A stretch of 64,000 nucleotides of DNA from a virus (IMGVR_UViG_3300049489_000540), one strand, 5' to 3'; positions 9,787 through 64,000 are shown, counted from the first letter of the stretch. Notes: a model not told the origin generated them from the letters alone. Translations and numbers: made by a program.

Positions 9787-9843
9787 GGGTTGCTCCTTGC
9801 GTATGGGTTTGATGTTAGCTTGGTTTCTCGGAATGTCAATCTT

Positions 9844-51701: not shown

Positions 51702-53006
51702 CTATTTTAGAGGGTCTATTAAGACCCTCTTTAGCTCTTGTTTTATTTCTTCCCATGTTTGTTTATAGGTAAAATAGAGAAGCTGATATCCATTGTCAGC
51801 AGCCCATGCTTTCTTAATAGCATCATGTCGTTGCCGTTCTTCAAAATTCAATTGAGCATCTTCAGTGGATGAACCAAACACTGGTCTAAAATGCTGCTCA
51901 CCTTGATACTCAATAAGCAACTTGCGCTGATCAATATAAAAATCAAATGGTAACGGTCGAATGTTTCTACATTCTTCAAACTTCTTCTGGTGTACATATG
52001 TAATTTTATGCCTATCTAAAAACTCAAATATGTTCTGCTCTCCTAATGATGACGCACATCGAGGACAACCATATCCTTGTAAAATACTAGTTGGACAAGT
52101 CACCCATTCATGCCCATCAATTAAACACTTCCATGCTATTTTTATTCCAGAATTAACAACATTACCAAGCCGCCGAATGTGCATATCAGCAATTCTCTCA
52201 TCTACACGCTCATTCGTTAGTGGAAGATTACCAGCACACTTCGGACATCCACTTTTATACGATACACTACTTGGAGTAGCCATCCACTCATGCCCATCCA
52301 CTAAACATCTAAATAAAATTCTACTACCAGAATTTATAATGTTACCAAGCCGCTGAATCTGCTTATCCTTAAGCCGCTCGTCCATAATCTCGTTCGTTAT
52401 TGGAAGTTTACCAGCACACTTCGGACATCCTTTACCTTTCGATATATCATTTGGTCGAGCCATCCACTCAAGACCATCAATCGTACATTTCCATAATACG
52501 CATGTTTCTGTATCAACAACCTCACCAAGACGCACGATAGGTCGATTCTTAATCCTCTTGTCCATAATCTCATTTGTTAGCCGCCGTGCTTGTGAGGCTT
52601 GCTTACGCATTAACTTACCACATTTCGGACATCCCTTACCCATCGATATATCATTTGGACTTGCCATCCATTCATGTCCATCAATCGTACACTTCCATAG
52701 TACCTTTGTTTTGCTTGTCGTAACATCACCAAGCCGCTGAATTGGTCTATCCTTAAGCCGCTCATCCATGATTTCGTTCGTTACATGAGCCGTACCAGCA
52801 CACTTCGGACAACCATGACCTTTTGAAACTTCGGATGGTGTAGTCATCCATTCATAACCATCAATTAAACATTTAAATAAAGTCTTTGCCTTACCATGAG
52901 TAACATCACCAAGCCGCTGAATAGGTCTACCTTTAAGTCGTGTATCGATTATCTCATTGGTTAGCTTCCTCATCCATGTATTATAGGAAACCGTCCTAGG
53001 TTTCAA
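51702..53006 (-). CDS. putative endonuclease: five tandem ~55-aa zinc-ribbon repeats plus C-terminal restriction-endonuclease-like (PD-(D/E)xK-type) domain
   Basis: 434 aa; repeat unit TNEIMDERLKDRPIQRLG...W(K/R)C.IDGHEW...GCPKCAG x5; C-term PFDFYIDQRKLLIEYQGEQHF; homing-endonuclease-like architecture inferred. Confidence 0.55.
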   Translation of the reverse strand: MKPRTVSYNTWMRKLTNEIIDTRLKGRPIQRLGDVTHGKAKTLFKCLIDGYEWMTTPSEVSKGHGCPKCAGTAHVTNEIMDERLKDRPIQRLGDVTTSKTKVLWKCTIDGHEWMASPNDISMGKGCPKCGKLMRKQASQARRLTNEIMDKRIKNRPIVRLGEVVDTETCVLWKCTIDGLEWMARPNDISKGKGCPKCAGKLPITNEIMDERLKDKQIQRLGNIINSGSRILFRCLVDGHEWMATPSSVSYKSGCPKCAGNLPLTNERVDERIADMHIRRLGNVVNSGIKIAWKCLIDGHEWVTCPTSILQGYGCPRCASSLGEQNIFEFLDRHKITYVHQKKFEECRNIRPLPFDFYIDQRKLLIEYQGEQHFRPVFGSSTEDAQLNFEERQRHDAIKKAWAADNGYQLLYFTYKQTWEEIKQELKRVLIDPLK

Positions 53007-53299: not shown

Positions 53300-54040
53300 G
53301 CAATAGACGAAAGAGAGAGGCACTAGAAAGGGCTTGTTCAGTTCCATAGGAAGGCTCATAGATAAAAGAAATAGAACATGCCTCTGGTCGAGTCAGAGAG
53401 GTTACTTCATAGGTCGCTGGATAGGCTGCTGATAGGCTGCTGGTGAAGCTGCTTGTCAAGTTGCTGGATAGGCTGCTGGATAAGCCGCTGGCATAGCTAC
53501 GAACCAAGCTGCTTCTTTCTCGTAAGTATACCTCAAGCAGCTTATACGCCCCTTCCGAGTAACTGAAAAATCCGCCAGGAAATCGGACCAGCAGCTTTAT
53601 AGGGGTCCAAAAGAACCCCTTATGAGCCGCTTGAAGTGATTTCGAGTCCTTGAAAAATCGGAAGGACTTGTCAAGCGGCTTTTCCAGTGTATGACACAGC
53701 CGCTTGGACCAGCAACGTGTAGTGTACCTGGCGGGCGGAACTTTGCAAGCGACTTCCCTGCCGCTCGAAAGCTGCTGTGTGACACACTCGCCCAGGTCCA
53801 TGACACAGCGGACACGCCGGTCCAGGCTGCTCTTGAGAGCAGACTAAGCCACTTACCATGCTCTTGCGAGCAGCTATGCAGTCCCCGTATAGCCGCTTGC
53901 TAGTCCCTCCAAGGACTTACAGGAAATAACACAATACCTGCTATCGGACAAATCGACTGTCAAGCCGCTCGGAAGGGAATGGAAAACTGCTCGGAAGCTG
54001 CTGGCAGAGTGACACACCGGATACGCCCGCCTGGACCTGG
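53300..54040. repeat. non-coding GC-rich zone dense in AAGC(N)GCTT / TCAAGCGGC motifs in both orientations (iteron-like; relics of the family-2 junction repeat)
   Basis: e.g. caagcagcttatacg 53531, gagccgcttgaag 53622, tgtcaagcggctt 53668, cagccgcttgg 53697, tagccgcttgc 53887, tgtcaagccgct 53957; the track ORFs here translate to low-complexity junk. Confidence 0.55.
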
Positions 54041-54050
54041 AATCTCGATG

Positions 54051-54077
54051 TTGACTTTCTACAAAGCATGGTAGGAT
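54051..54077 (+). promoter_or_regulatory. promoter TTGACTT-N15-TAGGAT (early-module consensus)
   Basis: gttgactttctacaaagcatggtaggat; SD aaggag precedes the ATG at 54096. Confidence 0.55.
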
Positions 54078-54095
54078 GATGGGTACAAGGAGCCA

Positions 54096-54545
54096 ATGAC
54101 CATGGGCTACTGCATCGAGATGGATGTCAACGACCTCATCATTCCGCAGAAGCACATGGCAAAGGCTCTCAGTGACATCAATGCGCTGCACAAGGACCAG
54201 GCGACCATCATCAAGAACCATGGTGGCGGCATGTCCACTTGTGGCGGCAAGACCACTTACAGCTACTCCTGGGTCGATCAGCCGCCCGAAGGTGGTTTCA
54301 AGACGCTGGTGGAAGCGTTCGATGCGTGGCGATACGAAGCTCGCATCACCGAGAACGGTGATTGCCTGGTCGATGCGTTCCAAGGTGAGAAGCTGGGTGA
54401 TTGCCATGTGCTGTGGTCGGCAGTCGCCAAGTACGTCAATCCCAAGGCATGGATTCATGTCAAGGGTGAGGACGGTGACCAGTGGAAGTGGGAGTTCAAG
54501 AAGGGGAAGTTCAAGGAGTTCAAGGGCAAAGTTTCTTTCCGTTGA
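54096..54545 (+). CDS. hypothetical protein (GC-rich early-module gene)
   Basis: 149 aa MTMGYCIEMDVNDLIIPQKH... Confidence 0.55.
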   Translation: MTMGYCIEMDVNDLIIPQKHMAKALSDINALHKDQATIIKNHGGGMSTCGGKTTYSYSWVDQPPEGGFKTLVEAFDAWRYEARITENGDCLVDAFQGEKLGDCHVLWSAVAKYVNPKAWIHVKGEDGDQWKWEFKKGKFKEFKGKVSFR

Positions 54546-54569
54546 CTTTCATCCGAAGTCTGATAGAGT
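54542..54569 (+). promoter_or_regulatory. promoter TTGACTT-N16-TAGAGT
   Basis: gttgactttcatccgaagtctgatagagta; SD aaggaa before the ATG at 54598. Confidence 0.55.
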
Positions 54570-54597
54570 ACAAACACAACCAAGGAATCCTTTTCCC

Positions 54598-55092
54598 ATG
54601 AGTACCCGCTCGAACATCGGCTACAAGCATCCCGTCACCGGCAAGTACCACTACTGCTACTGCCATTGGGACGGCTACATGTCATGGAACGGTCGCATCC
54701 TGCGCGACAACTACAAGTCGCTCCAGAAGGTCAAGATGCTGGTCAATCTGGGGGACATTTCGGTTCTCAAGAAGAATGTGCGTCCTCCGAAGAAGCCGAT
54801 GTATGAGGACTACACCAAGCGGGTCGGGAACAAGCGGGTCTATGTGCCCGTGGAGAAGCATTCCTTCGAGACGCCCGACCGCAATACGGTCATCGCGTAC
54901 CATCGGGACCGTGGTGAGCCGCTGAACAAGCCCAAGGTCAGTGACGAATTCCCCGTGGAGCAGGAATGGGCGTACTGCTTCATCGACGGTCGCTGGTTCT
55001 TCAAGTGGGGTCGGATGAAGGAGTGGCACAACATGCCCTCTGGTGACCAGAAGGCATTGCAGGCATTCGAAAAGAACTTATACGGAGACTAG
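54598..55092 (+). CDS. hypothetical protein
   Basis: 164 aa from MSTRSNIGYKHPVTGKYHYCYCHWDGYMSWNG; the upstream part of track ORF 54124..55092 is a spurious alternative frame of gene 54096..54545. Confidence 0.55.
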   Translation: MSTRSNIGYKHPVTGKYHYCYCHWDGYMSWNGRILRDNYKSLQKVKMLVNLGDISVLKKNVRPPKKPMYEDYTKRVGNKRVYVPVEKHSFETPDRNTVIAYHRDRGEPLNKPKVSDEFPVEQEWAYCFIDGRWFFKWGRMKEWHNMPSGDQKALQAFEKNLYGD

Positions 55093-55295
55093 TGCGCTCC
55101 GACCGCATACCGTTACATCCAGGCACCCATCTCTCTGACATGGGGGCACTGGTCAAGCTGCGGGACAAGTGGCTGCACTCGTCCCCAGCGGAGCGGCTTG
55201 CCATAGTGCAAAACATCTGGTACGAGATAGATACCTTCGGGGACATCTATCGCATGGATTTAGAAGGAGACGATGATGGACCAGGCACAGATTGA
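55092..55295 (+). CDS. hypothetical small protein (GTG start; may start at a later ATG)
   Basis: 67-aa ORF, start overlaps the previous stop. Confidence 0.35.
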   Translation: MRSDRIPLHPGTHLSDMGALVKLRDKWLHSSPAERLAIVQNIWYEIDTFGDIYRMDLEGDDDGPGTD

Positions 55296-55548
55296 TCGCA
55301 TCCATGATGCCACGAAGCATGCACGATCCTATGAGCGGTATGGTATGGTTGGCTGGGTTCGAAGTATTACATATCTGTTGAAGTATTTTTCCGAAATTCA
55401 GACAACGAAGATCATGAAATCGCAGTTTCCTCGATGGGCAGCCCAGATCCATATGACTGACAAGCCTTTACGAGAAGACGCACTGGAGTATTACATTGAA
55501 ACGGAAAGCATACGGCACGAATTGCCGTTGATCTTCCCAGACAGTTGA
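55273..55548 (+). CDS. hypothetical protein
   Basis: 91-aa ORF. Confidence 0.45.
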   Translation: MMDQAQIDRIHDATKHARSYERYGMVGWVRSITYLLKYFSEIQTTKIMKSQFPRWAAQIHMTDKPLREDALEYYIETESIRHELPLIFPDS

Positions 55549-55572
55549 CATTCTCGAAGATCCTGGTAGGAT
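55545..55572 (+). promoter_or_regulatory. promoter TTGACA-N16-TAGGAT, 6 nt before the ATG (leaderless)
   Basis: cagttgacattctcgaagatcctggtaggat gtgggc ATG. Confidence 0.5.
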
Positions 55573-55578
55573 GTGGGC

Positions 55579-56148
55579 ATGAACATCGATGAGATCCGTG
55601 CCCACCTCTCCTACCTGGATCGGGAGTTTCCCGACCGTGGGGACTTCAACGAAGCGGTCGGCTGGGACTTTCCCGAGATGGGCGGCGGTCTGTTCCGCAC
55701 CGTCTACGATGCTGGTCCGTATGTGGTCAAGCTGCTGAACACGGTTGGTGAGTTCGAGCGGCATAACATGTTCCATGACCGCCGGGAACTGCATCGTGCC
55801 AATACGCAGGAGTTGAAGGCATGGAAGCAGATCGAACGGAAGTATCCGAGTCTGCTGCCGTTCTTGCTTGAGCCGCATCTGTGGAAGGGTATGTTCAACG
55901 ATGCGATCATCATGGAGAAGGTCGATGTGTTGAAGTATGCGTCCAGCGGTGGTCTGGAGAAGATCAAGCCGCTCTGGTCGGAGCGCATGAAGAAGCAGTA
56001 CAAGTTCATCGAACAGCACTTTGCCGACACCCATGTGGGTAACATCGGCTGGTCGATTGAGCGTGATCGGGTCTGGTTGATCGACTTCAACATGCATTGG
56101 GACGATTACACAACCGAGTGTCTGGAGGAAGCGAAGCTCGTCGCTTGA
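55579..56148 (+). CDS. putative small protein-kinase-like/phosphotransferase-fold protein
   Basis: MNIDEIRAH...; catalytic-loop-like HVGNIGWSIERD and DFG-like LIDFN; start placed at the ATG 6 nt after the -10, whereas the track start 55573 is GTG. Confidence 0.45.
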   Translation: MNIDEIRAHLSYLDREFPDRGDFNEAVGWDFPEMGGGLFRTVYDAGPYVVKLLNTVGEFERHNMFHDRRELHRANTQELKAWKQIERKYPSLLPFLLEPHLWKGMFNDAIIMEKVDVLKYASSGGLEKIKPLWSERMKKQYKFIEQHFADTHVGNIGWSIERDRVWLIDFNMHWDDYTTECLEEAKLVA

Positions 56149-56171
56149 CTTTCCAAATAGCTTGCTAGAAT
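56145..56171 (+). promoter_or_regulatory. promoter TTGACTT-N15-TAGAAT, 6 nt before the ATG (leaderless)
   Basis: gcttgactttccaaatagcttgctagaat acattc ATG(56178). Confidence 0.5.
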
Positions 56172-56177
56172 ACATTC

Positions 56178-56762
56178 ATGATACGACACGACACCCCTTA
56201 CGGTGACCTGATCCAGCGGCTGGAAGAGAAGCTGGTGAGCTTCGGCTACAAGCTGGATCTGGAACTGTGGACGATCGAGATGGATCCACGGCAGCGCACC
56301 AAGGGTGGTTGTTGCTCCGTCAACTTCCACTTCGGCACGGTTCGGCTGCGGCTGAATGAGCGGCTGTTCAAGACGCTGACCGATGAGGAACGCTGGAACA
56401 TTCTGGCGCATGAGGCAGCGCACGGTGTCTGCTTCAAGACGGGTGCTTGGAAGGACGGGCATGGTCCGATCTGGAAGGTGTGGCATCGGCGGCTGGGTGG
56501 TACTGCCGAGCGGTGCCATGATCATGAGGTCAAGCACAATCTGGTGAAGCGGTACATTCTGACGGATCGGACTCGTCCTGGCGTCCACTACTCGGTGAGC
56601 AGCCAGAAGGCACGGAAGTATCTGGCATGGAACGCCATACGCTTCACGCTCGTCGGCATCACTCTCTGTGATCGCAACACCATGACATGGCGCTGGGAAA
56701 AGCTCTACGATGCCAACATGCGTGAGGCTGCGATCTTCACCAAGCTGCGGAGGATTGAATAA
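56178..56762 (+). CDS. SprT-like zinc metalloprotease domain protein
   Basis: 194 aa; HExxH motif NILAHEAAHGV, size and context typical of the SprT family. Confidence 0.55.
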   Translation: MIRHDTPYGDLIQRLEEKLVSFGYKLDLELWTIEMDPRQRTKGGCCSVNFHFGTVRLRLNERLFKTLTDEERWNILAHEAAHGVCFKTGAWKDGHGPIWKVWHRRLGGTAERCHDHEVKHNLVKRYILTDRTRPGVHYSVSSQKARKYLAWNAIRFTLVGITLCDRNTMTWRWEKLYDANMREAAIFTKLRRIE

Positions 56763-56763
56763 C

Positions 56764-57018
56764 ATGTGTGATAATCCCTTCGAACTGTACGCTTCGATGC
56801 CGGGTGTATGTGGTGCTACTCGCTCCATCAAGGCTGCGATCAAGCGGGCGCAGCACAAGGTGATCGAAGGCATGCCTGCCCAGATGGCATATAAGGAGGT
56901 CCGCAAGGTGCTGGACCGCTACACGCACCTGGGTGCGGGCGACTCCGAGCCACGCTGGCATGCTGCCAAGCTGTTCGCTCAAGGCTGCGGTCTGGATCCC
57001 GACGATTTCTACTGCTAG
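56764..57018 (+). CDS. hypothetical small protein
   Basis: 84 aa MCDNPFELYASMPGVCGATRSIKAAIKRAQHK... from the internal ATG of the track ORF. Confidence 0.45.
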   Translation: MCDNPFELYASMPGVCGATRSIKAAIKRAQHKVIEGMPAQMAYKEVRKVLDRYTHLGAGDSEPRWHAAKLFAQGCGLDPDDFYC

Positions 57019-57026
57019 CCGCTGGG

Positions 57027-57060
57027 AAAGCCACTCGTCAAGAGTGGCTTTCTTGGTTTT
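57027..57060 (+). terminator. rho-independent terminator
   Basis: aaagccactc-gtcaa-gagtggcttt cttggtttt. Confidence 0.65.
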
Positions 57061-57112
57061 ATTCGAGAGAGTGATACAGCGGATACGCCAGCCGCCTGGT
57101 CAAGAAACGACA

Positions 57113-57150
57113 AAAGCCACTCCGAAGAGTGGCTTGTCGGTTTGCTTATT
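57113..57150 (+). terminator. second near-identical hairpin, 86 nt downstream (tandem or bidirectional terminator)
   Basis: aaagccactc-cgaa-gagtggctt gtcggtttgctt. Confidence 0.55.
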
Positions 57151-57159
57151 CAGCCGCTA

Positions 57160-57396
57160 TCAGCCTACTGGTTCCAGCTTGAGAACGCTTTCTTGAAGGA
57201 TCTTGCTGGAAATGTAGATCGCAGCACCTTCACGCGCAAACTTGATGTAGGTGGTTTTACCCGCCGCGCCCATGGCAAGCATGTCTTTCAGTTCCTTGAT
57301 TTCATCTGCCGTATGCTCGTTGGGGTCCGAGTAGTAGGTCGAACCTGACGGCAGATGATGAACGACGATGCGGTGTCTGGTCACGGTCGCCATCAA
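57160..57396 (-). CDS. hypothetical protein
   Basis: 78-aa ORF. Confidence 0.45.
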   Translation of the reverse strand: MMATVTRHRIVVHHLPSGSTYYSDPNEHTADEIKELKDMLAMGAAGKTTYIKFAREGAAIYISSKILQESVLKLEPVG

Positions 57397-57590
57397 GCCA
57401 TCTCGCTCAACAGCTTGAGGGCGGTGACCGCCTTGTGCTTCTTGAGGACGCGCTCGACCTTGAACGCCTTGACCTTGCTGGACGGGCGACCGCGCTTGCC
57501 CGTGTGGGAGAGAGCCTTCAGGTGTGGCACGACATCGGGATCGACGGCGCAGACCTTGATGACTTCGTTGAGGTTGAGGATTCGGCTCAT
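57393..57590 (-). CDS. small basic, possibly DNA-binding protein
   Basis: 65 aa, Lys/Arg-rich (GKRGRPSSKVKAFKVERVLKKHK); ATGA overlap. Confidence 0.45.
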   Translation of the reverse strand: MSRILNLNEVIKVCAVDPDVVPHLKALSHTGKRGRPSSKVKAFKVERVLKKHKAVTALKLLSEMA

Positions 57591-57621
57591 GGTATTCCCT
57601 TTCTTGGGATGTTGTGAATTT

Positions 57622-57648
57622 AATTTACCGTAAATTTGAAGAAGTCAA
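57622..57648 (-). promoter_or_regulatory. promoter TTGACTT-N15-TAAATT (minus strand)
   Basis: minus strand reads ttgacttcttcaaatttacggtaaatt; SD aaaggga before the ATG at 57590. Confidence 0.45.
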
Positions 57649-57656
57649 TAGTGTTT

Positions 57657-57989
57657 TTAGAGGCACTTCAGATTTTTGGTATCCCAGCGATCTTCCACGA
57701 TGATGGAATCAATTTCATCGGGAGTCGGGAACTGATTCTGAGCGAGCGACAGATCGATGAAATTGAACGGGATGCCGCGATTCGTCTCGAAGTAGTCGGC
57801 ATTGTGGCGCATGAACTTCGAGAACAGAATCCATTCCGTCTGAGCGACCGAGTAGCGCATGAGCAGCTTCTGGACGCAGCGCCTCCACAGCTTCTCACCG
57901 TAGCGGTCGCGGCTGTAGGCGTCCTCAGTGCGATCCATAATGGACTGCACGATCTGCTTGCCGATCTGGGCATCAAGGCTGTTGCTCAT
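57657..57989 (-). CDS. hypothetical protein
   Basis: 110-aa ORF. Confidence 0.5.
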   Translation of the reverse strand: MSNSLDAQIGKQIVQSIMDRTEDAYSRDRYGEKLWRRCVQKLLMRYSVAQTEWILFSKFMRHNADYFETNRGIPFNFIDLSLAQNQFPTPDEIDSIIVEDRWDTKNLKCL

Positions 57990-57995
57990 GGTTGT

Positions 57996-58023
57996 ACTCT
58001 ACCTTGGTTTTGTAGGAAGTCAA
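57996..58023 (-). promoter_or_regulatory. promoter TTGACTT-N16-TAGAGT, 6 nt before the ATG (leaderless)
   Basis: minus strand reads ttgacttcctacaaaaccaaggtagagt acaacc ATG(57989). Confidence 0.55.
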
Positions 58024-58472
58024 CGATGAATCTTGGGACGGGGCTTCATGCCCTCATCCGTGGATTCGTAGATGCCAGGCACGGTGCAGTTGATACCCGA
58101 CGCATGCAGTTCTGCCACGCTCACATCGGATAGTTCCGACCACATCAATTCCAATTCCCGCTTGCCAATGATCGGATTGCGGAAGGTCGGATTGGCGACT
58201 TGAATGGCACCGAATTCATCGGCAGCGACGATCAGACAGTGACCATGCTGCTGGTGCTTGTCATTGTCACCAGATTCGCCAGCGACTCCCGTGAGCCTCC
58301 AGACACGCAAGGCACCAGGCAGCTTGGAATCGTCCTTGGTCTTGGACGCATCGACCTTGGGCAGCGGCTCACCAGCCATCATGGCACAGACCCACAGCGG
58401 CTTGCGCCCACGCTTGCCGCTGGTCCAGACTTCGCCCGTTTCGGGATGCGTGAGGCTGATGGGGTCAGCCAT
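58020..58472 (-). CDS. hypothetical protein
   Basis: 150-aa ORF. Confidence 0.5.
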   Translation of the reverse strand: MADPISLTHPETGEVWTSGKRGRKPLWVCAMMAGEPLPKVDASKTKDDSKLPGALRVWRLTGVAGESGDNDKHQQHGHCLIVAADEFGAIQVANPTFRNPIIGKRELELMWSELSDVSVAELHASGINCTVPGIYESTDEGMKPRPKIHR

Positions 58473-58656
58473 GGGTGTACATGTCCTTCAAGATGTCATC
58501 GATCAGCGACTGTGCCGACTTGGTAGTATCGACAAAGCCTTCGCGGGTAAGATTTGAAATCTGTGCGCTGTCGGCAGCCTTGATCGTGGCTTCCACCACG
58601 GCAGCCAGAGCCGCCAGTTCCTTGGCGCGAATCTCACGTTCTTGTATGGTTGGCAT
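58465..58656 (-). CDS. hypothetical small protein
   Basis: 63-aa ORF. Confidence 0.45.
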   Translation of the reverse strand: MPTIQEREIRAKELAALAAVVEATIKAADSAQISNLTREGFVDTTKSAQSLIDDILKDMYTHG

Positions 58657-58663
58657 GGTTATT

Positions 58664-58691
58664 ACTCTACCAGAGGTTTCGAGGAAGTCAA
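58664..58691 (-). promoter_or_regulatory. promoter TTGACTT-N16-TAGAGT, 7 nt before the ATG (leaderless); the -35 lies in the 16-bp palindrome GAAGTCAATTGACTTC
   Basis: minus strand reads ttgacttcctcgaaacctctggtagagt aataacc ATG(58656); palindrome at 58684-58699 gives a TTGACTTC on both strands. Confidence 0.55.
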
Positions 58692-58969
58692 TTGACTTCT
58701 GAAAGCGCCATCTTTTTGCGCCGAGCCGCTTCGTTTATCAACTCCGTTTTCATTTTCAGAACGACCAAGCTGACGCGAATGGTATTTGCCATGTCACCAT
58801 TGGCACATGAAGCTGCGCCGATCATCATCACTTGCCAGATCACAGCGCCTTCGGGTAGACTCTTGCAGAGCCGAGCGCAGACCTTCACGATGCGACGGGC
58901 ATATACCCGCTGCTGCTCGTCTTGCTTCTTGAGCATATTACCGAAGGCGAGCAACATGCAGAAGAGCAT
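58688..58969 (-). CDS. hypothetical protein (start uncertain)
   Basis: C-terminal ~93 aa of track ORF 58688..59185 (MLFCMLLAFGNMLKKQDEQQ...); the upstream part overlaps 58984..59220 and looks like an alternative frame. Confidence 0.3.
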   Translation of the reverse strand: MLFCMLLAFGNMLKKQDEQQRVYARRIVKVCARLCKSLPEGAVIWQVMMIGAASCANGDMANTIRVSLVVLKMKTELINEAARRKKMALSEVN

Positions 58970-58983
58970 GTAGTCTTTGAGCG

Positions 58984-59220
58984 TCACTTGCACCGCTCCC
59001 AGAACTTCTTGACGCCTTCCTCTTCGGTCTTGCAGTAGCTGCCATTCTCGTAAGCCCAGCCGCCATTGTACTCGTAGGCGTTGTGGACCACGAAGGGATG
59101 GTAGCCGTCGCACTTGTGCAGCACGGTCTTGACGCGAGTGCGGTAGCCATCGCCAGCAGGGATCACTCCACTGTGGAGAATCCAATCGGCAGGGATGGCG
59201 GGGATGGTGATCGTGTTCAT
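58984..59220 (-). CDS. hypothetical small protein
   Basis: 78 aa from MNTITIPAIPADW; the longer track start at 59280 would overlap its own promoter. Confidence 0.45.
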   Translation of the reverse strand: MNTITIPAIPADWILHSGVIPAGDGYRTRVKTVLHKCDGYHPFVVHNAYEYNGGWAYENGSYCKTEEEGVKKFWERCK

Positions 59221-59227
59221 GTTGGTC

Positions 59228-59255
59228 ACTTTACCACGATCACACCAGAAGTCAA
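59228..59255 (-). promoter_or_regulatory. promoter TTGACTT-N16-TAAAGT, 7 nt before the ATG (leaderless)
   Basis: minus strand reads ttgacttctggtgtgatcgtggtaaagt gaccaac ATG(59220). Confidence 0.5.
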
Positions 59256-59368
59256 TAGAGAGTTTATCACCCATGGGCACATGCTACCAAGGACTATAAA
59301 AATTACAAGAGAGTGATACACCAGAAACGCCGCCCGAATTCAAAATACACTCTAGACTTTTTTCAAAC

Positions 59369-59731
59369 ATGTGCTATGATATTGGCATGAAGACAGCATC
59401 GAAATCTGATCCATCCACCGATCTGCTCAAGCTCAGTGACTTCTGCTGCATCATCAATGCCATAGAGGGAATGGATGCGCTGAATGATGATCGCCCAGCC
59501 AACTGTGGTGATGAAGCGGTCGATGCCTACCATACCAGGCGGCGGAAGCGTCGGACGAACCTGGAACGGCAGCGGCAGATGATCTACGATCTGATGATCG
59601 CCCATGCCAACAAGCTGGTCGCCGCCCAAGTGCCGCTCCCACAACTCGATGCAGCTATTCATGCTGCTGGCTGGACCGATCAGCACTTCATTGCCGATGC
59701 TCGTCCCTCCGTCACGATTGTTGAGAATTGA
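59369..59731 (+). CDS. hypothetical protein
   Basis: 120-aa ORF. Confidence 0.5.
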   Translation: MCYDIGMKTASKSDPSTDLLKLSDFCCIINAIEGMDALNDDRPANCGDEAVDAYHTRRRKRRTNLERQRQMIYDLMIAHANKLVAAQVPLPQLDAAIHAAGWTDQHFIADARPSVTIVEN

Positions 59732-59925
59732 TGCCTATTACGATTGATCGCATCGAGCGGCTGGAAAAGCTGCTGACCCGCACCGATCTTCCCGTCCAGA
59801 AGAAGCAGGGTTTCGACCGCAACATCAATCGCGTCCAGTGGTTGAAGGACAACTTCGATGTACGGAACAAGGATCATCCCAAGCGGGATGAAATTATGAA
59901 ACTGATCGATGATATCTTAAGTTGA
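59728..59925 (+). CDS. hypothetical small protein
   Basis: 65 aa, ATGA overlap. Confidence 0.45.
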   Translation: MMPITIDRIERLEKLLTRTDLPVQKKQGFDRNINRVQWLKDNFDVRNKDHPKRDEIMKLIDDILS

Positions 59926-59945
59926 AAGTTTTTGAAAATAGATGA

Positions 59946-59972
59946 TTGACCTCTAAAAAGGTTTGCTATTAT
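59946..59972 (+). promoter_or_regulatory. promoter TTGACC-N15-TATTAT
   Basis: ttgacctctaaaaaggtttgctattat; SD aggaga before the ATG at 60011. Confidence 0.5.
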
Positions 59973-60010
59973 GAGTGTCTCAATATGCGGCACAGCCGCA
60001 GGAGACACGG

Positions 60011-60352
60011 ATGAAGAAGGCTACAGCTACAAAAGAGAAAACAACTAAAAAGGAACAGGCGGAACCAAAAGCCACGCCGCGTGCCTATACGTTCTACGAT
60101 GTTTTTAGTAAACAGCGTGGATACCTCTGTTCATGTATAGATGAAAATGCTGTACATAAAACGCTCTATGCACTGTTCCGAGAAAATGAAAAGTATTGGC
60201 ACCGTGATCGTTCAGAGGGCAAGAAGTCACGGGCGTTCGATTGCTACGGTATTGCCAGGTGCGGTAACTCCAGTCGTATCATCGAGTTGATGTTCGAGGA
60301 AGAAACCGAAACCGATACCTATGATGATGTGGTGGAGCAGTCGAACAAATGA
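60011..60352 (+). CDS. hypothetical protein
   Basis: 113 aa MKKATATKEKTTKKEQAEPK...; the track ORF starts at the GTG at 59975. Confidence 0.5.
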   Translation: MKKATATKEKTTKKEQAEPKATPRAYTFYDVFSKQRGYLCSCIDENAVHKTLYALFRENEKYWHRDRSEGKKSRAFDCYGIARCGNSSRIIELMFEEETETDTYDDVVEQSNK

Positions 60353-60558
60353 TATATATCGGAATTGTTTCATCGAAAAGCCAGCAAGACGGTAGTGGCA
60401 CATTCAAAGCTATCTACCCCGAAGGGCAAATCGCCATCGTCAATGACAATGGTACCTACGGTGCATACGTTGCTGGGCGAACCGAAGGCATACGCATCGA
60501 AGGTTATCAGGTTTTTGAGAACGCTCAAGATGCATTATCATGGGTGATGCAAAAGTGA
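60349..60558 (+). CDS. hypothetical small protein
   Basis: 69 aa, ATGA overlap. Confidence 0.45.
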   Translation: MIYIGIVSSKSQQDGSGTFKAIYPEGQIAIVNDNGTYGAYVAGRTEGIRIEGYQVFENAQDALSWVMQK

Positions 60559-60610
60559 TTGACACGGTACGGATTTCGTTTACATTACTCCCCTCTCTAC
60601 AAGGAACCGC

Positions 60611-60988
60611 ATGAAGAAATCAGCAGGCAAAGGACACTTCACAGCAACACCACTTGAGTTCCAACTCGATGGTAAGACATATACTTATGCCGGTCGTGGG
60701 CGCTGGTCAGTCCAGCTTGCGACCCGCATTGCCACCGACAAGAAGGCTCCTGTCAAGGCAGAAGATGGAACTTGGACCTGGCGTGATGCCACACCGTCCG
60801 AACTCGCATCGGCTGAGAAGCTGACTGCCAAGGTCGCCAAGTCGTTGGAGGACAAGGCTGCGAAGGCTACTGCCCGCATCGCTCGTAAGGCTGCCAAGGG
60901 TCGCAAGAAGGCGACCGAGGAAGTGCCCGTCGAAGCTGCTGCCGAAGTAGCCGAAGCCGCTCCCGAAGCCGCCAAAGCTGGGGCTTGA
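60611..60988 (+). CDS. hypothetical protein with Ala/Lys-rich (histone-H1-like) C-terminal tail
   Basis: 125 aa; tail AKVAKSLEDKAAKATARIARKAAKGRKKATEE. Confidence 0.5.
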   Translation: MKKSAGKGHFTATPLEFQLDGKTYTYAGRGRWSVQLATRIATDKKAPVKAEDGTWTWRDATPSELASAEKLTAKVAKSLEDKAAKATARIARKAAKGRKKATEEVPVEAAAEVAEAAPEAAKAGA

Positions 60989-61019
60989 TATTTTCTGATG
61001 GTGTGTTAGACTACGCATG

Positions 61020-61320
61020 TCAACATTCCGATAAGCAATGACCGCCGAGTGGGATCAGCCCGCTAGGTCGCTAGAGGATGGCGAACAAGCCCATCGGTCC
61101 ATTAGACTTTAGATCCGGTCGATGTTGACGCTCTTTTTCAACCCAAGGCTAGGTTCAGCAAATCCTAAAATAAAGGACGCCGTAAGGGCACAACGGTCTT
61201 CGATTTCTCCGTGGGCAACGCCAGGAAACTGGTAAAAGCCCTAAATGAAGTAGGCAACTAGCCTGTTTTTCTCTCTCATAAGAATCCGTCAGCAATCCCG
61301 CTCATAGCGGATTCTGTTAA
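61020..61320 (+). ncRNA. candidate structured non-coding RNA in the 350-nt ORF-free gap upstream of the vWA/TROVE-like gene
   Basis: no ORF; long-range complementarity catgtcaacat (61027) with atgttgacg (61121) and local hairpin aatcccgct-cat-agcggatt (61296-61316); strand and extent not determined. Confidence 0.25.
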
Positions 61321-61338
61321 CAAAGGAATATACTACCT

Positions 61339-62709
61339 ATGAGTATCAAGACTGTTACTGCCAATGGCGCTGCTACCTTCAAGTCCACGGGTGATGCGCT
61401 CGTCAACCTCTTCTTCCAGATCGGCGCGAGCCGCAACAATCCAGACGCTGCCAAGCGTCTGTTCGATGCTGCGATGGCTGATGATCTGCTCAAGGCAACC
61501 GCCATTCTCTGCTGGGCGCGTGACGCTCGCGGTGGTGCTGGTGAGCGTAATATCTTCCGTGTGCTGGTGAAGGAGCTTGTCGATTCCGACGAGTCGCTGG
61601 CTCGCAAGGTCGTGAACCTTGTGCCGCGCATCGGTCGTTTCGATGACCTCACCGTGTTCTACGGCACCAAGGTGGAAGCCGACGCCATCAATGTGTGGGT
61701 CGGTGCGCTTCGTTCCGACAATGCGCTCGCTGCGAAGTGGGCGGATCGTAAGGACAAGAAGCTCCAGCGTGCGCTGCGCATGAACGAGGCTGCGCTGCGT
61801 AAGTTCCTGTCGAACATGCGCAAGCACACCATCGTGGAAAACGCGATGTGCCAGAACGAGTGGTCCAACATCGAGTACGGCAAGCTGCCGTCCGTCGCTG
61901 GCATGCGCTACTCCAAGGCGTTCAAGAAGCACGATGAAACCCGCTATGCGGAGTTCATGGGCAACAAGAACACCAAGGTCAATGCTGGTGTCGCGTACCC
62001 ATACGATGTGTACCGTCTGCTCATGGCTGGTCAGAGCGATGCAACCGTGGTCGCAGCGGCTACCAAGTATTGGGAGAATCTGAACAAGCTGTCGGTGGCT
62101 GGCAACATCCTCTGCATGGCTGACGTTTCGGGTTCGATGGCTGGTGCGATAGCATCGGGTTCCGTCACATGCATGGATGTGTCGATTTCCTTGTCCGTGT
62201 TCTTGTCGCAACAGATCAAGGGCGCGTTCAACGGCAAGCTGATGACATTCAGTGAGTCCCCGACGCTGGTGAATCTGCCGTCCAAGGGCAATCTGCTTGA
62301 TCTGTTCCAGTTCACCAGCCGCATGAATTGGGGCATGAACACGAACCTTGAGGCAGCGTTCGCTGCGATTCTCAAGGAGGCGGTGCGCTTCAAGGTCAAG
62401 CCAGCCGACATGCCGACCATGCTGCTGGTTCTCTCCGACATGGAGTTCGACCGTGCGGCTGGTGGAGCGACCCTGAGCGATTCCATGAAGGCGCAGTACA
62501 AGGCTGCTGGCTACGAGCCGCCGAAGATGTGCTGGTGGAATCTGAATGGCAGCGGAAAGAATTTCCCTGTCATGAAGAACGAGAAGGGTTCCTGTCTGGT
62601 GTCTGGTTTCAGCCCGAAGGTGCTGGAAGCGGTCATCGCTGCCAAGGAATTCACGCCGATCAGCGTGGTTGAGGAAGCGATCAAGCCGTACCTTGACCTC
62701 TTGAAGTGA
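61339..62709 (+). CDS. vWA-domain protein (MIDAS motif DxSGS) with N-terminal alpha-helical domain, possibly TROVE/Ro60-like
   Basis: 456 aa; MIDAS CMADVSGSMAG near residue 264; SD aaaggaa. Confidence 0.55.
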   Translation: MSIKTVTANGAATFKSTGDALVNLFFQIGASRNNPDAAKRLFDAAMADDLLKATAILCWARDARGGAGERNIFRVLVKELVDSDESLARKVVNLVPRIGRFDDLTVFYGTKVEADAINVWVGALRSDNALAAKWADRKDKKLQRALRMNEAALRKFLSNMRKHTIVENAMCQNEWSNIEYGKLPSVAGMRYSKAFKKHDETRYAEFMGNKNTKVNAGVAYPYDVYRLLMAGQSDATVVAAATKYWENLNKLSVAGNILCMADVSGSMAGAIASGSVTCMDVSISLSVFLSQQIKGAFNGKLMTFSESPTLVNLPSKGNLLDLFQFTSRMNWGMNTNLEAAFAAILKEAVRFKVKPADMPTMLLVLSDMEFDRAAGGATLSDSMKAQYKAAGYEPPKMCWWNLNGSGKNFPVMKNEKGSCLVSGFSPKVLEAVIAAKEFTPISVVEEAIKPYLDLLK

Positions 62710-62714
62710 TCGTT

Positions 62715-62752
62715 GCAGCTACGATGGGCAACTGTCGTAGCTGCTTCGTTTA
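62715..62752 (+). terminator. rho-independent terminator after the vWA gene
   Basis: gcagctacga-tgggcaact-gtcgtagctgc ttcgttt. Confidence 0.6.
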
Positions 62753-62753
62753 T

Positions 62754-62839
62754 GCCCTTGTGGCGGAATGGTATACGCAAAAGTTTTAAAAACTTTCGGG
62801 GGAAACCCCATGTCGGTTCGAGTCCGACCACCGGCACCA
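62754..62839 (+). tRNA. tRNA-Leu: tRNA-Leu(UAA)-like gene (type II, long variable arm); acceptor stem has two mismatches
   Basis: anticodon stem aaagt/acttt with loop TTTAAAA (anticodon TAA); variable arm ggggg-aaa-cccc; T-arm gtcgg-TTCGAGT-ccgac; 3' caccggc-A-CCA; 5' strand gcccttg pairs only 5/7. Confidence 0.55.
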
Positions 62840-62848
62840 TTTCGTCTA

Positions 62849-62875
62849 TTGACTTCTCCTAGATCATGGTAGAGT
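62849..62875 (+). promoter_or_regulatory. promoter TTGACTT-N15-TAGAGT, 6 nt before the ATG (leaderless)
   Basis: ttgacttctcctagatcatggtagagt acaccc ATG(62882). Confidence 0.55.
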
Positions 62876-62881
62876 ACACCC

Positions 62882-63175
62882 ATGATCGAAGATACCGACC
62901 TCTACAACACCCGCCGCGCCGGTTCCGAAAAGACCGAAGACGGTGATCGCTACTTCTCCTTCGAAGTTCGCGCTAAGGGTTTCGCTGGGGTTCGCGCCTT
63001 TCATGCCGCTGCTGATCGCTTCATTCGGGATTGGACCGCTTGCGGCGATGGCTGGCTCAAGGGCACCTACGGCATCCTGGTCGATGGGGCGGAAATCGCC
63101 ATCGAAGCTCGCAACGACGAGTGGGCTTCCCGTCAGCAGGAAATCGAAGATCACGCTCTCGGATACTGGAGATAA
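62882..63175 (+). CDS. hypothetical protein
   Basis: 97-aa ORF. Confidence 0.5.
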   Translation: MIEDTDLYNTRRAGSEKTEDGDRYFSFEVRAKGFAGVRAFHAAADRFIRDWTACGDGWLKGTYGILVDGAEIAIEARNDEWASRQQEIEDHALGYWR

Positions 63176-63178
63176 ACC

Positions 63179-63427
63179 ATGAGTACCAAATCCTCGATCG
63201 AGTCCGTCTACAAGGTCTATGATGACGGCGAAGGCGTTTCCATCAACGTCGAAAGCGACTGTGATGCGCTGGGATTTGTCCGCATCACAACCGCCGATAA
63301 TCCGAAGTCGGTCGAGTTTTGGGGCAAGATCGACTTCACCATGGCTCCCGAGATTGCTGAAAATCTCGCCAAGGCACTTCTCAAAAAGGTCAAGGACATT
63401 CGGGACGAGGAAAAGACCAATGGATGA
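63179..63427 (+). CDS. hypothetical protein
   Basis: 82-aa ORF. Confidence 0.5.
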   Translation: MSTKSSIESVYKVYDDGEGVSINVESDCDALGFVRITTADNPKSVEFWGKIDFTMAPEIAENLAKALLKKVKDIRDEEKTNG

Positions 63428-63641
63428 TAAAAACATTCTGGATTGGATTCAAGAGCATCTGACGGATTTCCGTGAGACGGTATATGATGGTGTGGATGAC
63501 GATGGAAAGAAAGTCAGCATCTACGATATGGGATGGTTGGACGATGATGGAGTCCATCACAGTGTCAGGGGTAGAAGCCTCCGCGATTGCGTCAAAATCG
63601 CCATCAACCAGAACCCGCCCGTGCCTCCGTGGCTGAAATAA
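63420..63641 (+). CDS. hypothetical small protein
   Basis: 73 aa from MDDKNILDWIQEHLTDF; 8-nt overlap with previous gene; the upstream part of track ORF 63219..63641 is an alternative frame. Confidence 0.45.
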   Translation: MDDKNILDWIQEHLTDFRETVYDGVDDDGKKVSIYDMGWLDDDGVHHSVRGRSLRDCVKIAINQNPPVPPWLK

Positions 63642-63647
63642 GACTCT

Positions 63648-63674
63648 TGACTTCCTTCAACACTCTGGTAGAGT
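63648..63674 (+). promoter_or_regulatory. promoter TTGACTT-N15-TAGAGT, 7 nt before the ATG (leaderless)
   Basis: cttgacttccttcaacactctggtagagt aacaacc ATG(63682). Confidence 0.55.
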
Positions 63675-63681
63675 AACAACC

Positions 63682-64000
63682 ATGACCACCACCCTCTCCC
63701 CCGCCCCTCTCGCCCCCATCGCCACCAAGTACAAGCTGCTCGTTCGCACCCGCAACGATGGCTACATCTACTTGGGTAACGACTTCAAGCTCTACTTCTG
63801 CGATCACAGCGGCGATGACCGCTGGGACAATCCGCAGGGTCCAGAGGCATGCGAGGATAAGCCGTCCCCGCTCGTCATCGAGTCGCTGACGAGGCACGCT
63901 GGCAAGGACTTCTGTGGTCCCATCACCGTCAAGCGTGAGGATGGCTACTCCACGATGCTCACGACCGATGTGTTCCGCCGCACGCTGGATCTGATCAAGC
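63682..64000 (+). CDS. hypothetical protein (3'-truncated by the window end)
   Basis: MTTTLSPAPLAPIATKYKLLVRTRNDGYIYLGN...; ORF still open at the window edge. Confidence 0.5.
   Translation, partial: MTTTLSPAPLAPIATKYKLLVRTRNDGYIYLGNDFKLYFCDHSGDDRWDNPQGPEACEDKPSPLVIESLTRHAGKDFCGPITVKREDGYSTMLTTDVFRRTLDLIK

What the first reader, a model, noticed from the sequence alone, without database searches (positions are those of the whole stretch)
54040..63700. A regulon of at least 11 near-identical promoters (TTGACTT-N15/16-TAGAGT), most placed 6-7 nt before the ATG so the transcripts would be leaderless
The GC-rich block is cut into short transcription units on both strands. Each is headed by TTGACTT(C)...TGGTAGAGT(A), with TAGGAT, TAGAAT or TAAAGT as -10 variants. 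In at least seven cases (55545, 56145, 57996-, 58664-, 59228-, 62849, 63648) the -10 hexamer ends exactly 6-7 nt before the ATG and there is no Shine-Dalgarno, so the mRNAs would start at or next to the start codon. The other cases carry AAGGAG-type leaders. The same consensus recurs in the AT-rich part at 22690, 28644, 41385 and 43786. A uniform, strong, host-sigma70-type promoter set with a systematically leaderless design is a distinctive regulatory strategy for what look like early or host-takeover genes.
Basis: seen in the sequence. Interest (0 to 1): 0.7.

Follow-up and report, generated by a model that had tools for sequence, protein, structure and literature searches.

The report
Phage promoters fused directly to start codons
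A stretch of an uncultured large phage carries 14 host-type promoters in 10 kb, and eight of them sit so close to a gene's ATG that the mRNA would have no leader; the layout is real and conserved in related phages, but this kind of gene expression is already known.

Summary
Window 54051-63674 holds 14 sites of the form TTGAC(T/A)-N15/16-(TGn)TAnnnT. Thirteen score at least 14 bits against a matrix built from them, versus 0 in simulated sequence.

Eight sites end exactly 6-7 nt before an ATG that opens a real ORF. These eight have no Shine-Dalgarno and always a C at -1. In six sites the TGA inside the -35 box is the stop codon of the upstream gene, so a roughly 30-nt intergenic gap consists only of a promoter.

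Eight related metagenomic contigs (128 kb, 53-86% protein identity) give 100 matrix hits versus about 3 expected. In 46 of them the first ORF-opening ATG lies 6 or 7 nt after the -10. None lie at 2-5, 8 or 10-14 nt.

The best reading is that a host primary-sigma RNA polymerase makes nested, co-terminal transcripts, about half of them leaderless.

The design is not confined to the GC-rich block. It is also a known kind: -10-adjacent leaderless genes occur in Deinococcus-Thermus and Actinobacteria, and leaderless transcripts in phage phiYS40 and Cluster O mycobacteriophages.

Early timing and the host are not established. No transcript 5' ends were available.

The parts
54051..54077 (+). Promoter P1: TTGACT-15-TAGGAT with TG extension. 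Leadered: AAGGAG at 54087-54092, start ATG 54102 (147 aa).
   Evidence: 24.7 bits. The gene call in the identical contig L016 and the L017 ortholog both start MGYC.
54542..54569 (+). Promoter P2: TTGACT-16-TAGAGT. Leadered: AAGGAA at 54582-54587, ATG 54598. The TGA inside the -35 (54543-54545) is the stop of the upstream gene.
55545..55572 (+). Promoter P3: TTGACA-16-TGG-TAGGAT. Leaderless: ATG 55579 lies 6 nt after the -10 (gene 55579-56148, 189 aa). The -35 TGA is the stop of gene 55273-55548.
   Evidence: Orthologs L017 2038 and L018 7999 keep the 6-nt gap. The GTG at 55573 is not conserved (GCG in L017).
56145..56171 (+). Promoter P4: TTGACT-15-TGC-TAGAAT. Leaderless: ATG 56178, gap 6 (SprT-like protein, 56178-56762). 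The -35 TGA is the stop of gene 55579-56148.
   Evidence: Orthologs: L017 2635 (gap 6), L018 8593 (gap 7), L193 158 (gap 7).
57021..57057 (+). Intrinsic terminator closing the + strand unit that starts at P1-P4.
   Evidence: 16-bp stem, then T-run.
57114..57135 (-). Intrinsic terminator closing the - strand unit that starts at P5-P8.
   Evidence: 9-bp stem, then T-run.
57622..57648 (-). Promoter P5: TTGACT-15-TAAATT. Leadered: 31-nt leader with AAAGGGA, ATG 57590.
   Evidence: The leader is highly conserved in L017 and L018.
57996..58023 (-). Promoter P6: TTGACT-16-TAGAGT. Leaderless: ATG 57989, gap 6 (gene 57657-57989, 110 aa). The -35 TGA is the stop of gene 58020-58472.
   Evidence: L017 4250 keeps gap 6. 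The promoter and most of the gene are absent from L018.
58664..58691 (-). Promoter P7: TTGACT-16-TGG-TAGAGT. Leaderless: ATG 58656, gap 7 (gene 58465-58656, 63 aa). The -35 TGA is the stop of gene 58688-58987.
   Evidence: L017 4924 keeps gap 7.
59228..59255 (-). Promoter P8: TTGACT-16-TGG-TAAAGT. Leaderless: ATG 59220, gap 7 (gene 58984-59220, 78 aa).
   Evidence: In L017 this gene is missing and the promoter there is fused (gap 7) to the next gene, whose start is ATG instead of the window's GTG.
59353..59380 (+). Promoter P9: TAGACT-16-TGC-TATGAT, divergent from P8. Leaderless: ATG 59387, gap 6 (gene 59387-59731).
   Evidence: L017 5283 has gap 7.
59946..59972 (+). Promoter P10: TTGACC-15-TGC-TATTAT. 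Leadered: 38-nt leader, ATG 60011. An inverted repeat GTGTCTC/GAGACAC overlaps the GGAGA.
   Evidence: The same leader is present in L017 5874 and L018 12011.
60559..60586 (+). Promoter P11: TTGACA-16-TACATT, the weakest match. Leadered: AAGGAA, ATG 60611.
   Evidence: (9.3 bits). Orthologs: L018 12622 and L017 6478.
60985..61012 (+). Promoter P12: TTGATA-16-TGT-TAGACT. It heads a 326-nt non-coding stretch that contains a conserved element, then the DUF2828/DUF7788 gene 61339-62709. The -35 TGA is the stop of gene 60611-60988.
62715..62744 (+). Intrinsic terminator after the DUF2828 gene.
   Evidence: 13-bp stem.
62849..62875 (+). Promoter P13: TTGACT-15-TGG-TAGAGT. Leaderless: ATG 62882, gap 6 (97-aa gene 62882-63175).
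   Evidence: Orthologous genes keep gap 6-7 in L018, L193, L194, L196 and L197. In L195 and L198 the gene overlaps the end of the preceding called gene (10001 vs 9600-10004; 9142 vs 8870-9145) and has no promoter hit of at least 14 bits directly upstream.
63647..63674 (+). Promoter P14: TTGACT-16-TGG-TAGAGT. Leaderless: ATG 63682, gap 7. The gene runs off the window.
   Evidence: L018 15664 keeps gap 7.

Best explanation
The sites are promoters read by a bacterial RNA polymerase carrying a primary (sigma70/SigA-type) sigma factor, most likely the host's. Each has a -35 box TTGACT, a short 15-16 bp spacer, a TG extension and a -10 box TAnnnT.

Four groups of promoters feed three strong terminators (the fourth unit runs off the window). 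This gives nested transcripts that share a 3' end.

At eight promoters the A of the ATG lies 7-8 nt after the last T of the -10 and is preceded by C. That is where such polymerases normally start (pyrimidine at -1, purine at +1). The transcript would therefore begin with AUG and be translated without a Shine-Dalgarno, by direct binding of the ribosome and initiator tRNA to the 5' AUG.

In six promoters the TGA inside TTGAC ends the upstream gene, so the roughly 30-nt gap between two genes is the promoter and nothing else. On a read-through transcript the downstream gene has no ribosome-binding site. Its own promoter is therefore what makes it translatable.

What is shown: the sequence geometry, its excess over chance, and its conservation. 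What is inferred: the transcription start points, the sigma factor involved, the leaderless translation and the timing in infection.
For: Excess over chance. 13 matrix hits in 10 kb versus 0 simulated. 5 exact matches versus 0 expected. 19 generic sigma70-like matches versus 6.3 +/- 2.5.

Two-peaked distance. In eight related contigs (128 kb) there are 100 hits versus 2-4 simulated. The first ORF-opening ATG lies at 6 nt in 23 cases and at 7 nt in 23 cases. There are none at 2-5, 8 or 10-14 nt, and a second cloud lies at 15-40 nt, where the cases inspected carry an SD. C is at -1 in 39 of 46 leaderless cases.

Conservation with sequence turnover. Examples: TAGAAT-acattc-ATG (window), acaaac (L017), TAAGAT-aacgcac (L018); TAGAGT-acaacc versus acacac.

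Start codon choice. All eight window starts are ATG, none has an SD, none has an alternative downstream start with an SD, and four have the -10 TAG as an in-frame stop. The same gene (TLKDYMLF...) starts with GTG when it overlaps the previous gene's stop in the window. It starts with ATG when it sits 7 nt after a -10 in L017.

Transcription units. Terminators lie only at 57021-57057, 57135-57114 and 62715-62744.

Positive control. Thermus phage phiYS40, whose middle/late mRNAs are reported to be leaderless (PMC3594737), gives the same TGnTAnnnT-6/7-ATG peak: 9 and 5, against about 2 for other gaps.

Experimental precedent. The -10-next-to-ORF pattern drives leaderless expression in Deinococcus radiodurans, and an added -35 box strengthens it (PMC12340547).
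Against: No transcript 5' ends, no expression data and no host are available.

The 15-16 bp hexamer spacer is shorter than the 17 +/- 1 optimum reported for E. coli, B. subtilis and D. radiodurans (PMC12340547).

The relatives share ancestry, so the 46 leaderless cases are not 46 independent events.

A codon-position test on the first 15 codons was not decisive.

The matrix was trained on the block itself.

Only 64 kb of the phage was seen, so a phage-encoded sigma factor cannot be excluded.
Confidence: 0.75

Rival explanations
1. The promoters are real, but the genes placed 6-7 nt behind them are translated mainly from longer read-through transcripts. A 70S ribosome that has terminated at the TGA in the -35 box would scan the roughly 30 nt and re-initiate. 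In some cases the -10 itself (TAGGAT contains AGGA, 7-8 nt before the ATG) would serve as a weak ribosome-binding site.
For: No terminators lie between the nested promoters. The stop codon lies inside the -35 in 6 of 13 TTGA-type window sites and 44 of 100 sites in relatives. TAGGAT is among the commonest -10 forms (12 of 100). An AGGA lies at -11 before ATG 55579.
Against: This does not explain why the ATG sits at exactly 6-7 nt and never at 2-5, 8 or 10-14 nt. It does not explain why C is nearly fixed at -1. It does not explain why first genes of a unit with no upstream gene on the strand (59220-, 59387+, 62882+) have the same geometry. Most -10 forms (TAGAGT, TAGACT, TATACT) contain no SD-like core.
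Confidence: 0.12
2. The motif is recognised by a phage-encoded sigma factor or polymerase rather than by the host enzyme. The sites would then be a phage-timed (middle or late) class, not host-read early promoters.
For: The motif is more uniform than a typical host promoter set: TTGACTTC and TGGTAGAGTA extend beyond the hexamers. The spacer is unusually short at 15-16 bp. Only part of the genome was seen.
Against: Both hexamers, the TG extension and the distance to the presumed start fit the primary-sigma consensus. No sigma factor or polymerase gene was found in the window by Pfam or PHROGs on the large ORFs and 93 small ORFs. The genes served are small ORFans, as in early regions of large phages.
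Confidence: 0.08
3. The repeats are mainly recombination cassettes, like the PeSL elements of T4-type phages. Their uniformity would come from copying and gene shuffling, and the proximity to ATGs would be a by-product.
For: Gene content differs next to promoters. The 78-aa gene 58984-59220 is absent from L017. The 110-aa gene with P6 is absent from L018, with one breakpoint exactly at the start of the -35. The 97-aa gene is promoter-led in six genomes, while in two it overlaps the end of the preceding gene and has no strong promoter hit directly upstream.
Against: There is no stem-loop component and no AT-rich upstream arm. Only about 18 of 37 positions are shared between copies and the spacers are unrelated. 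That leaves too little homology for the roughly 100-bp PeSL-type exchange described in PMC2839356. The other breakpoint in L018 lies inside a gene. This reading is compatible with, not opposed to, promoter function.
Confidence: 0.05

Closest known systems
-10 region adjacent to ORFs / 'TA-led' leaderless genes of Deinococcus-Thermus and Actinobacteria (PMC12340547; PMC3160421)
   Same: A TANNNT box lies a few bases before the start codon and there is no SD. In that work the box acts as the classical -10 and gives leaderless mRNA, and a properly placed -35 raises expression. The distance peak matches.
   Different: Here nearly every site also has a strong -35 and a TG extension, while most Deinococcus cases lack a -35. 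The spacer is 15-16 rather than 17 bp. The elements are in a phage and are packed one per roughly 700 bp. Nothing is experimentally tested here.
Thermus thermophilus phage phiYS40 middle/late leaderless transcripts (Sevostyanova et al. 2007, as summarised in PMC3594737)
   Same: It is a large AT-rich phage (32.6% GC) that makes most of a transcript class without leaders. It shows the same TGnTAnnnT-6/7-ATG signature in my scan.
   Different: It is not related: only one of 137 window ORFs, the Fe-S oxidoreductase-like protein, hits phiYS40. From memory of that paper, its leaderless class lacks a -35, belongs to middle/late genes, and infection shifts IF2/IF3 levels. None of this is known here.
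Predicted SigA-like promoters of Cluster O mycobacteriophages (PMC4351075)
   Same: These are host-type -35/-10 promoters in a phage, several predicted to give leaderless mRNAs with +1 on the first base of the start codon. They include a divergent pair, as at 59228-59380 here.
   Different: There are 8-9 promoters per roughly 70-kb genome, three of them leaderless. Here there are 14 per 10 kb, eight of them leaderless. No stop-in-the--35 compaction is reported there. The host there is known.
PeSL (promoter-early stem-loop) cassettes of T4-type phages (PMC2839356; PMC4122927)
   Same: These are repeated strong sigma70-like promoters clustered among small ORFan genes in variable regions of a large phage that, like this one, has rIIA/rIIB-type genes. 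Gene indels occur next to them.
   Different: PeSLs carry a stem-loop terminator, an AT-rich upstream arm and a Shine-Dalgarno before the ATG. Here there is no stem-loop, the upstream arm is coding sequence, and 8 of 14 sites have no SD.
Leaderless cI mRNA from lambda P_RM and prophage regulators of E. coli (PMC4681348)
   Same: These are phage genes whose transcript starts at the AUG.
   Different: They are isolated regulatory genes in a host with only five leaderless mRNAs detected. Here the design is applied to about half of all predicted promoters.

Membership tests
Primary-sigma (sigma70/SigA-type) -35/-10 promoters | -35 hexamer close to TTGACA | tested here: met
   T1 14/14, T2 13/14, G3 14/14, A4 14/14, C5 13/14.
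Primary-sigma (sigma70/SigA-type) -35/-10 promoters | -10 hexamer TAnnnT with invariant T1, A2 and T6 | tested here: met
   T, A and final T in 14/14. TG extension in most sites.
Primary-sigma (sigma70/SigA-type) -35/-10 promoters | Hexamer spacer of 17 +/- 1 bp | tested here: inconclusive
   Spacer is 15 in 5 sites and 16 in 9 sites in the window. In relatives it is 15:16:17 = 59:38:3. Sixteen is within range, fifteen is not.
Primary-sigma (sigma70/SigA-type) -35/-10 promoters | Transcription starts 6-8 nt after the -10 in vivo or in vitro | not testable with these tools
   No transcript data are available.
Leaderless (-10-adjacent, 'TA-led') genes | -10 box ends about 6-7 nt before the start codon, more often than at other distances | tested here: met
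   8 of 14 window sites. 46 of 100 sites in relatives, with empty classes at 2-5, 8 and 10-14 nt.
Leaderless (-10-adjacent, 'TA-led') genes | No Shine-Dalgarno, and the ATG is the only plausible start | tested here: met
   N-termini align from that Met in orthologs.
Leaderless (-10-adjacent, 'TA-led') genes | mRNA 5' end at the start codon, and translation from it | not testable with these tools
   Needs 5'-end mapping and ribosome profiling or toeprinting.
PeSL cassettes of T4-type phages | Stem-loop terminator/attenuator within or next to the promoter | tested here: not met
   Strong terminator-like hairpins occur at only three places, none at a promoter.
PeSL cassettes of T4-type phages | Shine-Dalgarno and ATG at the 3' end of the cassette | tested here: not met
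   8 of 14 sites have no room for an SD.
PeSL cassettes of T4-type phages | Indels of ORFans bounded by the cassettes in close relatives | tested here: inconclusive
   Two or three indels were seen. One breakpoint lies at a -35, another inside a gene.
phiYS40-type leaderless middle/late promoters | Phage related to phiYS40 | tested here: not met
   One shared gene only.
phiYS40-type leaderless middle/late promoters | Extended -10 without a -35 (recalled from Sevostyanova 2007; paper not held) | tested here: not met
   All sites here have a strong -35.

The most novel reading that the evidence does not exclude
The host may belong to a group in which leaderless mRNAs are rare. The best rIIA and DUF2828 matches are to phages of Gammaproteobacteria, although only at 27-40% identity. 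In that case a phage clade that puts about half of its promoters directly on start codons would need to re-tune host translation initiation in its own favour. It could do so by changing IF2/IF3 balance, as reported for phiYS40, or by disabling SD-dependent initiation. The promoter-only 30-nt intergenic unit (stop codon in the -35, start codon at +1) would then be a dedicated takeover grammar, not a copy of host habits.
Probability: 0.12. Interest if true: 0.75.

Novelty: new member of a known kind. Interest (0 to 1): 0.42.

Why it matters
It gives a clean, comparatively supported example of how tightly a phage can pack expression signals. One 30-nt gap holds the stop of one gene, a full promoter and the start of the next.

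The two-peaked distance rule (6-7 nt, or 15 nt and more with an SD) is a practical aid for calling gene starts in this uncultured phage group. Automatic callers over-extended some of these genes, for example 96 versus 78 aa and 120 versus 114 aa in L016.

The rule also narrows the likely host to bacteria that translate leaderless mRNAs well. It does not reveal a new mechanism.

Tried and rejected
Relatives and identity.
- No near-identical phage is in the phage collection. Large ORF 2139-4394 has no phage homolog.
- An IMG/VR scan for the promoter pattern gave 15 single, chance-level hits.
- IMG/VR protein scans with two block proteins found nothing.
- IMG/VR scans for two conserved non-coding words found nothing.
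- A metagenome scan for a 17-mer of the conserved non-coding element gave 50 loci, none related by blastn.

Host.
- A genome-collection scan with the DUF2828 protein found nothing.
- The tRNA-Leu 3' half matches tRNA genes of many phyla over only about 30 nt, so it says nothing about the host.
- Pfam on 93 small ORFs gave only three weak hits and no WhiB.
- Sample identifiers are not in the paper library.
- An actinobacterial host was considered. The -10 form TAG(R)(R)T recalls the Streptomyces consensus of Strohl 1992, which I cite from memory. The rIIA hits with the best coverage are Streptomyces phages. I could not test this idea.

Other.
- Kinship with phiYS40 is rejected.
- Rfam has no match for the non-coding stretch before the DUF2828 gene.
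- A codon-position substitution test at the N-termini was uninformative.
- The Sevostyanova 2007 paper could not be read.

Full report
SETTING. The window comes from an uncultured large phage. It encodes rIIA (9844-11991, minus strand) and rIIB (8848-9786, minus strand) homologs. No near relative is in the phage collection, and the best protein identities there are 27-42%. Bases 1-54000 are 36-52% GC, mostly 38-42%. Bases 54001-64000 are 53-55% GC. An independent 15.9-kb assembly (L016) is identical across the AT/GC junction, so the junction is not an assembly artefact.

OBSERVATION.
- The exact string TTGACTT-N14-17-TAGAGT occurs five times, against 0.00 expected.
- The -35 positions are almost invariant: T 14, T 13, G 14, A 14, C 13 of 14. 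So are the T, A and last T of the -10.
- G precedes the -10 by two bases in 13 of 14 sites and T by three bases in 11 of 14, which is the TGn extension.
- The hexamer spacer is 15 bp in five sites and 16 bp in nine.
- A matrix built from the sites scores 13 of them at 14 bits or more, while simulated block sequence gives none.
- A generic sigma70 scan finds 19 sites against 6.3 +/- 2.5.
- Spacers between the boxes are not alike, so 'near-identical' applies to the core elements only.

LEADERLESS GEOMETRY.
- Eight sites end 6 nt (ATGs 55579, 56178, 57989-, 59387, 62882) or 7 nt (58656-, 59220-, 63682) before an ATG that opens an ORF.
- I scanned for TTGNNN-N15-17-TANNNT followed by any gap of 0-25 nt and an ATG opening at least 50 codons. 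Of the block's 14 matches, 8 fall in gaps 6 and 7. By my own binomial arithmetic that is about 2e-6.
- All eight have C at -1, which fits the usual pyrimidine(-1)/purine(+1) start preference (established knowledge).
- None has an SD-like core at a usable distance. The one exception is the AGGA inside TAGGAT before 55579.
- None has a later in-frame start with an SD.
- In four, the TAG of the -10 is an in-frame stop at -12, so the ATG is the only possible start.
- The six other promoters have 24-38-nt leaders with AAGGAG, AAGGAA, AAAGGGA or GGAGA. One of them (60985) heads a non-coding stretch.

COMPACTION. In six window sites (54542, 55545, 56145, 60985, 58691-, 58023-) the TGA inside TTGAC is the stop codon of the upstream gene. 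For 55545 and 56145 the whole intergenic gap is 30 and 29 nt: stop in the -35, start at +1.

TRANSCRIPTION UNITS. Strong terminators lie only at 57021-57057 (+), 57135-57114 (-) and 62715-62744 (+). The units are:
- P1-P4 running to the first terminator.
- P8-P5 running leftwards to the second terminator.
- P9-P12 running to the third terminator.
- A tRNA-Leu gene (62754-62839), then P13 and P14 running off the window.
P8 and P9 are divergent. Within a unit the transcripts would be nested and share a 3' end.

COMPARATIVE TEST.
- Protein searches found relatives only in metagenomes: L017 (81% identity) and L018/L019 (53%).
- Through the 97-aa protein 62882-63175 I also found L193-L198 (56-86% identity; 37-55% GC; different samples).
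- Orthologous promoters keep the boxes and the gap while the bases between the -10 and the ATG change. Examples are acattc / acaaac / aacgcac, and acaacc / acacac.
- In the eight relatives (128 kb) the window-trained matrix gives 100 hits against 2-4 in simulated sequence.
- The distance from the -10 to the first ORF-opening ATG is 6 nt in 23 cases and 7 nt in 23 cases. There are no cases at 2-5, 8 or 10-14 nt. A second cloud lies at 15-40 nt, where the cases I inspected carry an SD.
- C is at -1 in 39 of 46 leaderless cases. The -35 TGA is a gene's stop in 44 of 100 hits.
- Two natural experiments support use of the 5' ATG. First, the gene TLKDYMLF... starts with GTG overlapping the previous stop in the window, but with ATG 7 nt after a -10 in L017, where the intervening gene is missing. 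Second, the 97-aa gene is promoter-fused in six genomes, while in L195 and L198 it overlaps the end of the preceding called gene and has no promoter hit of at least 14 bits directly upstream.
- These cases share ancestry and are not all independent, but the empty distance classes are hard to explain otherwise.

NOT CONFINED TO THE BLOCK.
- The AT-rich 54 kb has 10 matrix hits of at least 14 bits against 2.7 simulated. Sites 41385 and 43786 match at hexamer level.
- With a looser -35, the AT part also peaks at gaps 6-8 (4, 6 and 6, against about 1.6). Examples are ATGs 52973-, 33967-, 32629-, 17715-, 16103- and 6880-.
- The block is therefore a dense cluster of a genome-wide promoter type, and leaderless placement is a general habit of this phage group. 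L197 shows the same grammar at 37% GC.

MECHANISM.
- Best-supported reading: a primary-sigma RNA polymerase starts at these sites, and at about half of them the transcript begins with AUG and is translated as a leaderless mRNA.
- On read-through transcripts a gene that follows a promoter-only gap has no ribosome-binding site, so its own promoter is what makes it translatable.
- The geometry, its statistics and its conservation are shown. The start sites, the sigma factor, the translation mode and 'early' timing are inferred.
- As a positive control, phiYS40 shows the same TGnTAnnnT-6/7-ATG peak in my scan. Its middle/late mRNAs are reported to be mostly leaderless (PMC3594737).

COMPARISON WITH WHAT IS KNOWN.
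- The -10 box next to the ORF has been shown experimentally to drive leaderless expression in Deinococcus radiodurans, with a -35 at 17 bp boosting it (PMC12340547).
- TA-led genes are predicted for about 19% of actinobacterial and 39% of Deinococcus-Thermus genes, but only about 4-7% in alpha-, beta- and gamma-Proteobacteria and Firmicutes (PMC3160421).
- In TSS mapping, S. coelicolor had 264 leaderless mRNAs and E. coli five (PMC4681348).
- Leaderless phage transcripts are known for phiYS40 and predicted for Cluster O mycobacteriophages (PMC4351075).
- Dense arrays of strong sigma70-like early promoters among ORFans are known as PeSLs in T4-type phages (PMC2839356). PeSLs have a stem-loop and an SD, which these sites lack, so I do not file them as PeSLs.
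- The phage is not related to phiYS40.
- This is a new, well-supported member of a known kind. Its particular features are a full -35 plus TG extension, a 15-16 bp spacer, and the stop-in-the--35 compaction.

OPEN POINTS.
- The host is unknown.
- The short spacer is unexplained.
- The block has a very different codon usage from the rest of the genome: GC3 is 0.69 against 0.40, and TTA makes up 2% against 20% of Leu codons. The only tRNA gene, tRNA-Leu(UAA), sits in the block.
- If the host turned out to be one in which leaderless mRNAs are rare, the finding would be much more interesting. I give that about 12%.

Noticed in passing
window 61143-61275 (+); L017 7114-7243; L018 13170-13323: A non-coding element lies between promoter 60985 and the DUF2828/DUF7788 'RNA-binding protein' gene (phrog_850). 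It is almost invariant in three phages whose proteins are only 53-81% identical. It has a closing stem AGGCTAG/CTAGCCT followed by TGTTTTT, a 27-nt hairpin insertion in L018, and one compensatory pair. There is no Rfam match. It may be a structured RNA partner of the protein (Y-RNA-like).
   Followed up: partly
window 62754-62839 (+); L018 14790-14875: The window's tRNA-Leu(UAA) has two adjacent mismatches in its acceptor stem (GCCCTTG against CACCGGC). The L018 copy (GCCGGTG) pairs perfectly, so the window copy may be impaired.
   Followed up: partly
window 54001-64000 versus 1-54000; L018 about 7000 onward: One phage genome shows two codon-usage regimes: GC3 is 0.69 against 0.40, and TTA is 2% against 20% of Leu codons. 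The jump is conserved in L018. The only tRNA gene, tRNA-Leu(UAA), lies in the GC-rich block although its codons are mostly in the AT-rich part.
   Followed up: partly
window 41461-43789 (+), 44420-46476 (-), 36814-37313 (+), 50827-51102 (-): There are tandem arrays of about 20 paralogous genes of 80-95 codons. Neighbours are joined by overlapping stop/start (ATGA), and the 3' ends are conserved (...cagcttgaagcagcttac...ctggagcagatATG).
   Followed up: no
window 59973-60013 (+); L017 5901-5940; L018 12038-12080: The leader of the gene starting at 60011 has an inverted repeat GTGTCTC...GAGACAC that overlaps the GGAGA ribosome-binding site. L017 has AGTCTC...GAGACT at the same place. This may be a translational control hairpin.
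   Followed up: no
window 58684-58699: A perfect 16-nt palindrome, GAAGTCAATTGACTTC, is formed by two back-to-back -35 boxes. Only the minus-strand box has a -10.
   Followed up: no
window 57560-58090 versus L018 9960-10270: L018 lacks promoter P6 and the first three quarters of the 110-aa gene but keeps its last roughly 70 nt. The left breakpoint is exactly at the first base of the -35 box.
   Followed up: partly
window 51702-53006 (-): A protein with five DUF4379 treble-clef zinc-finger repeats and a CapR homology domain sits next to the GC-rich block. Its start as called in L016 (ATG 52973) lies 6 nt after a TATAAT. The L018 ortholog is longer (618 aa).
   Followed up: no
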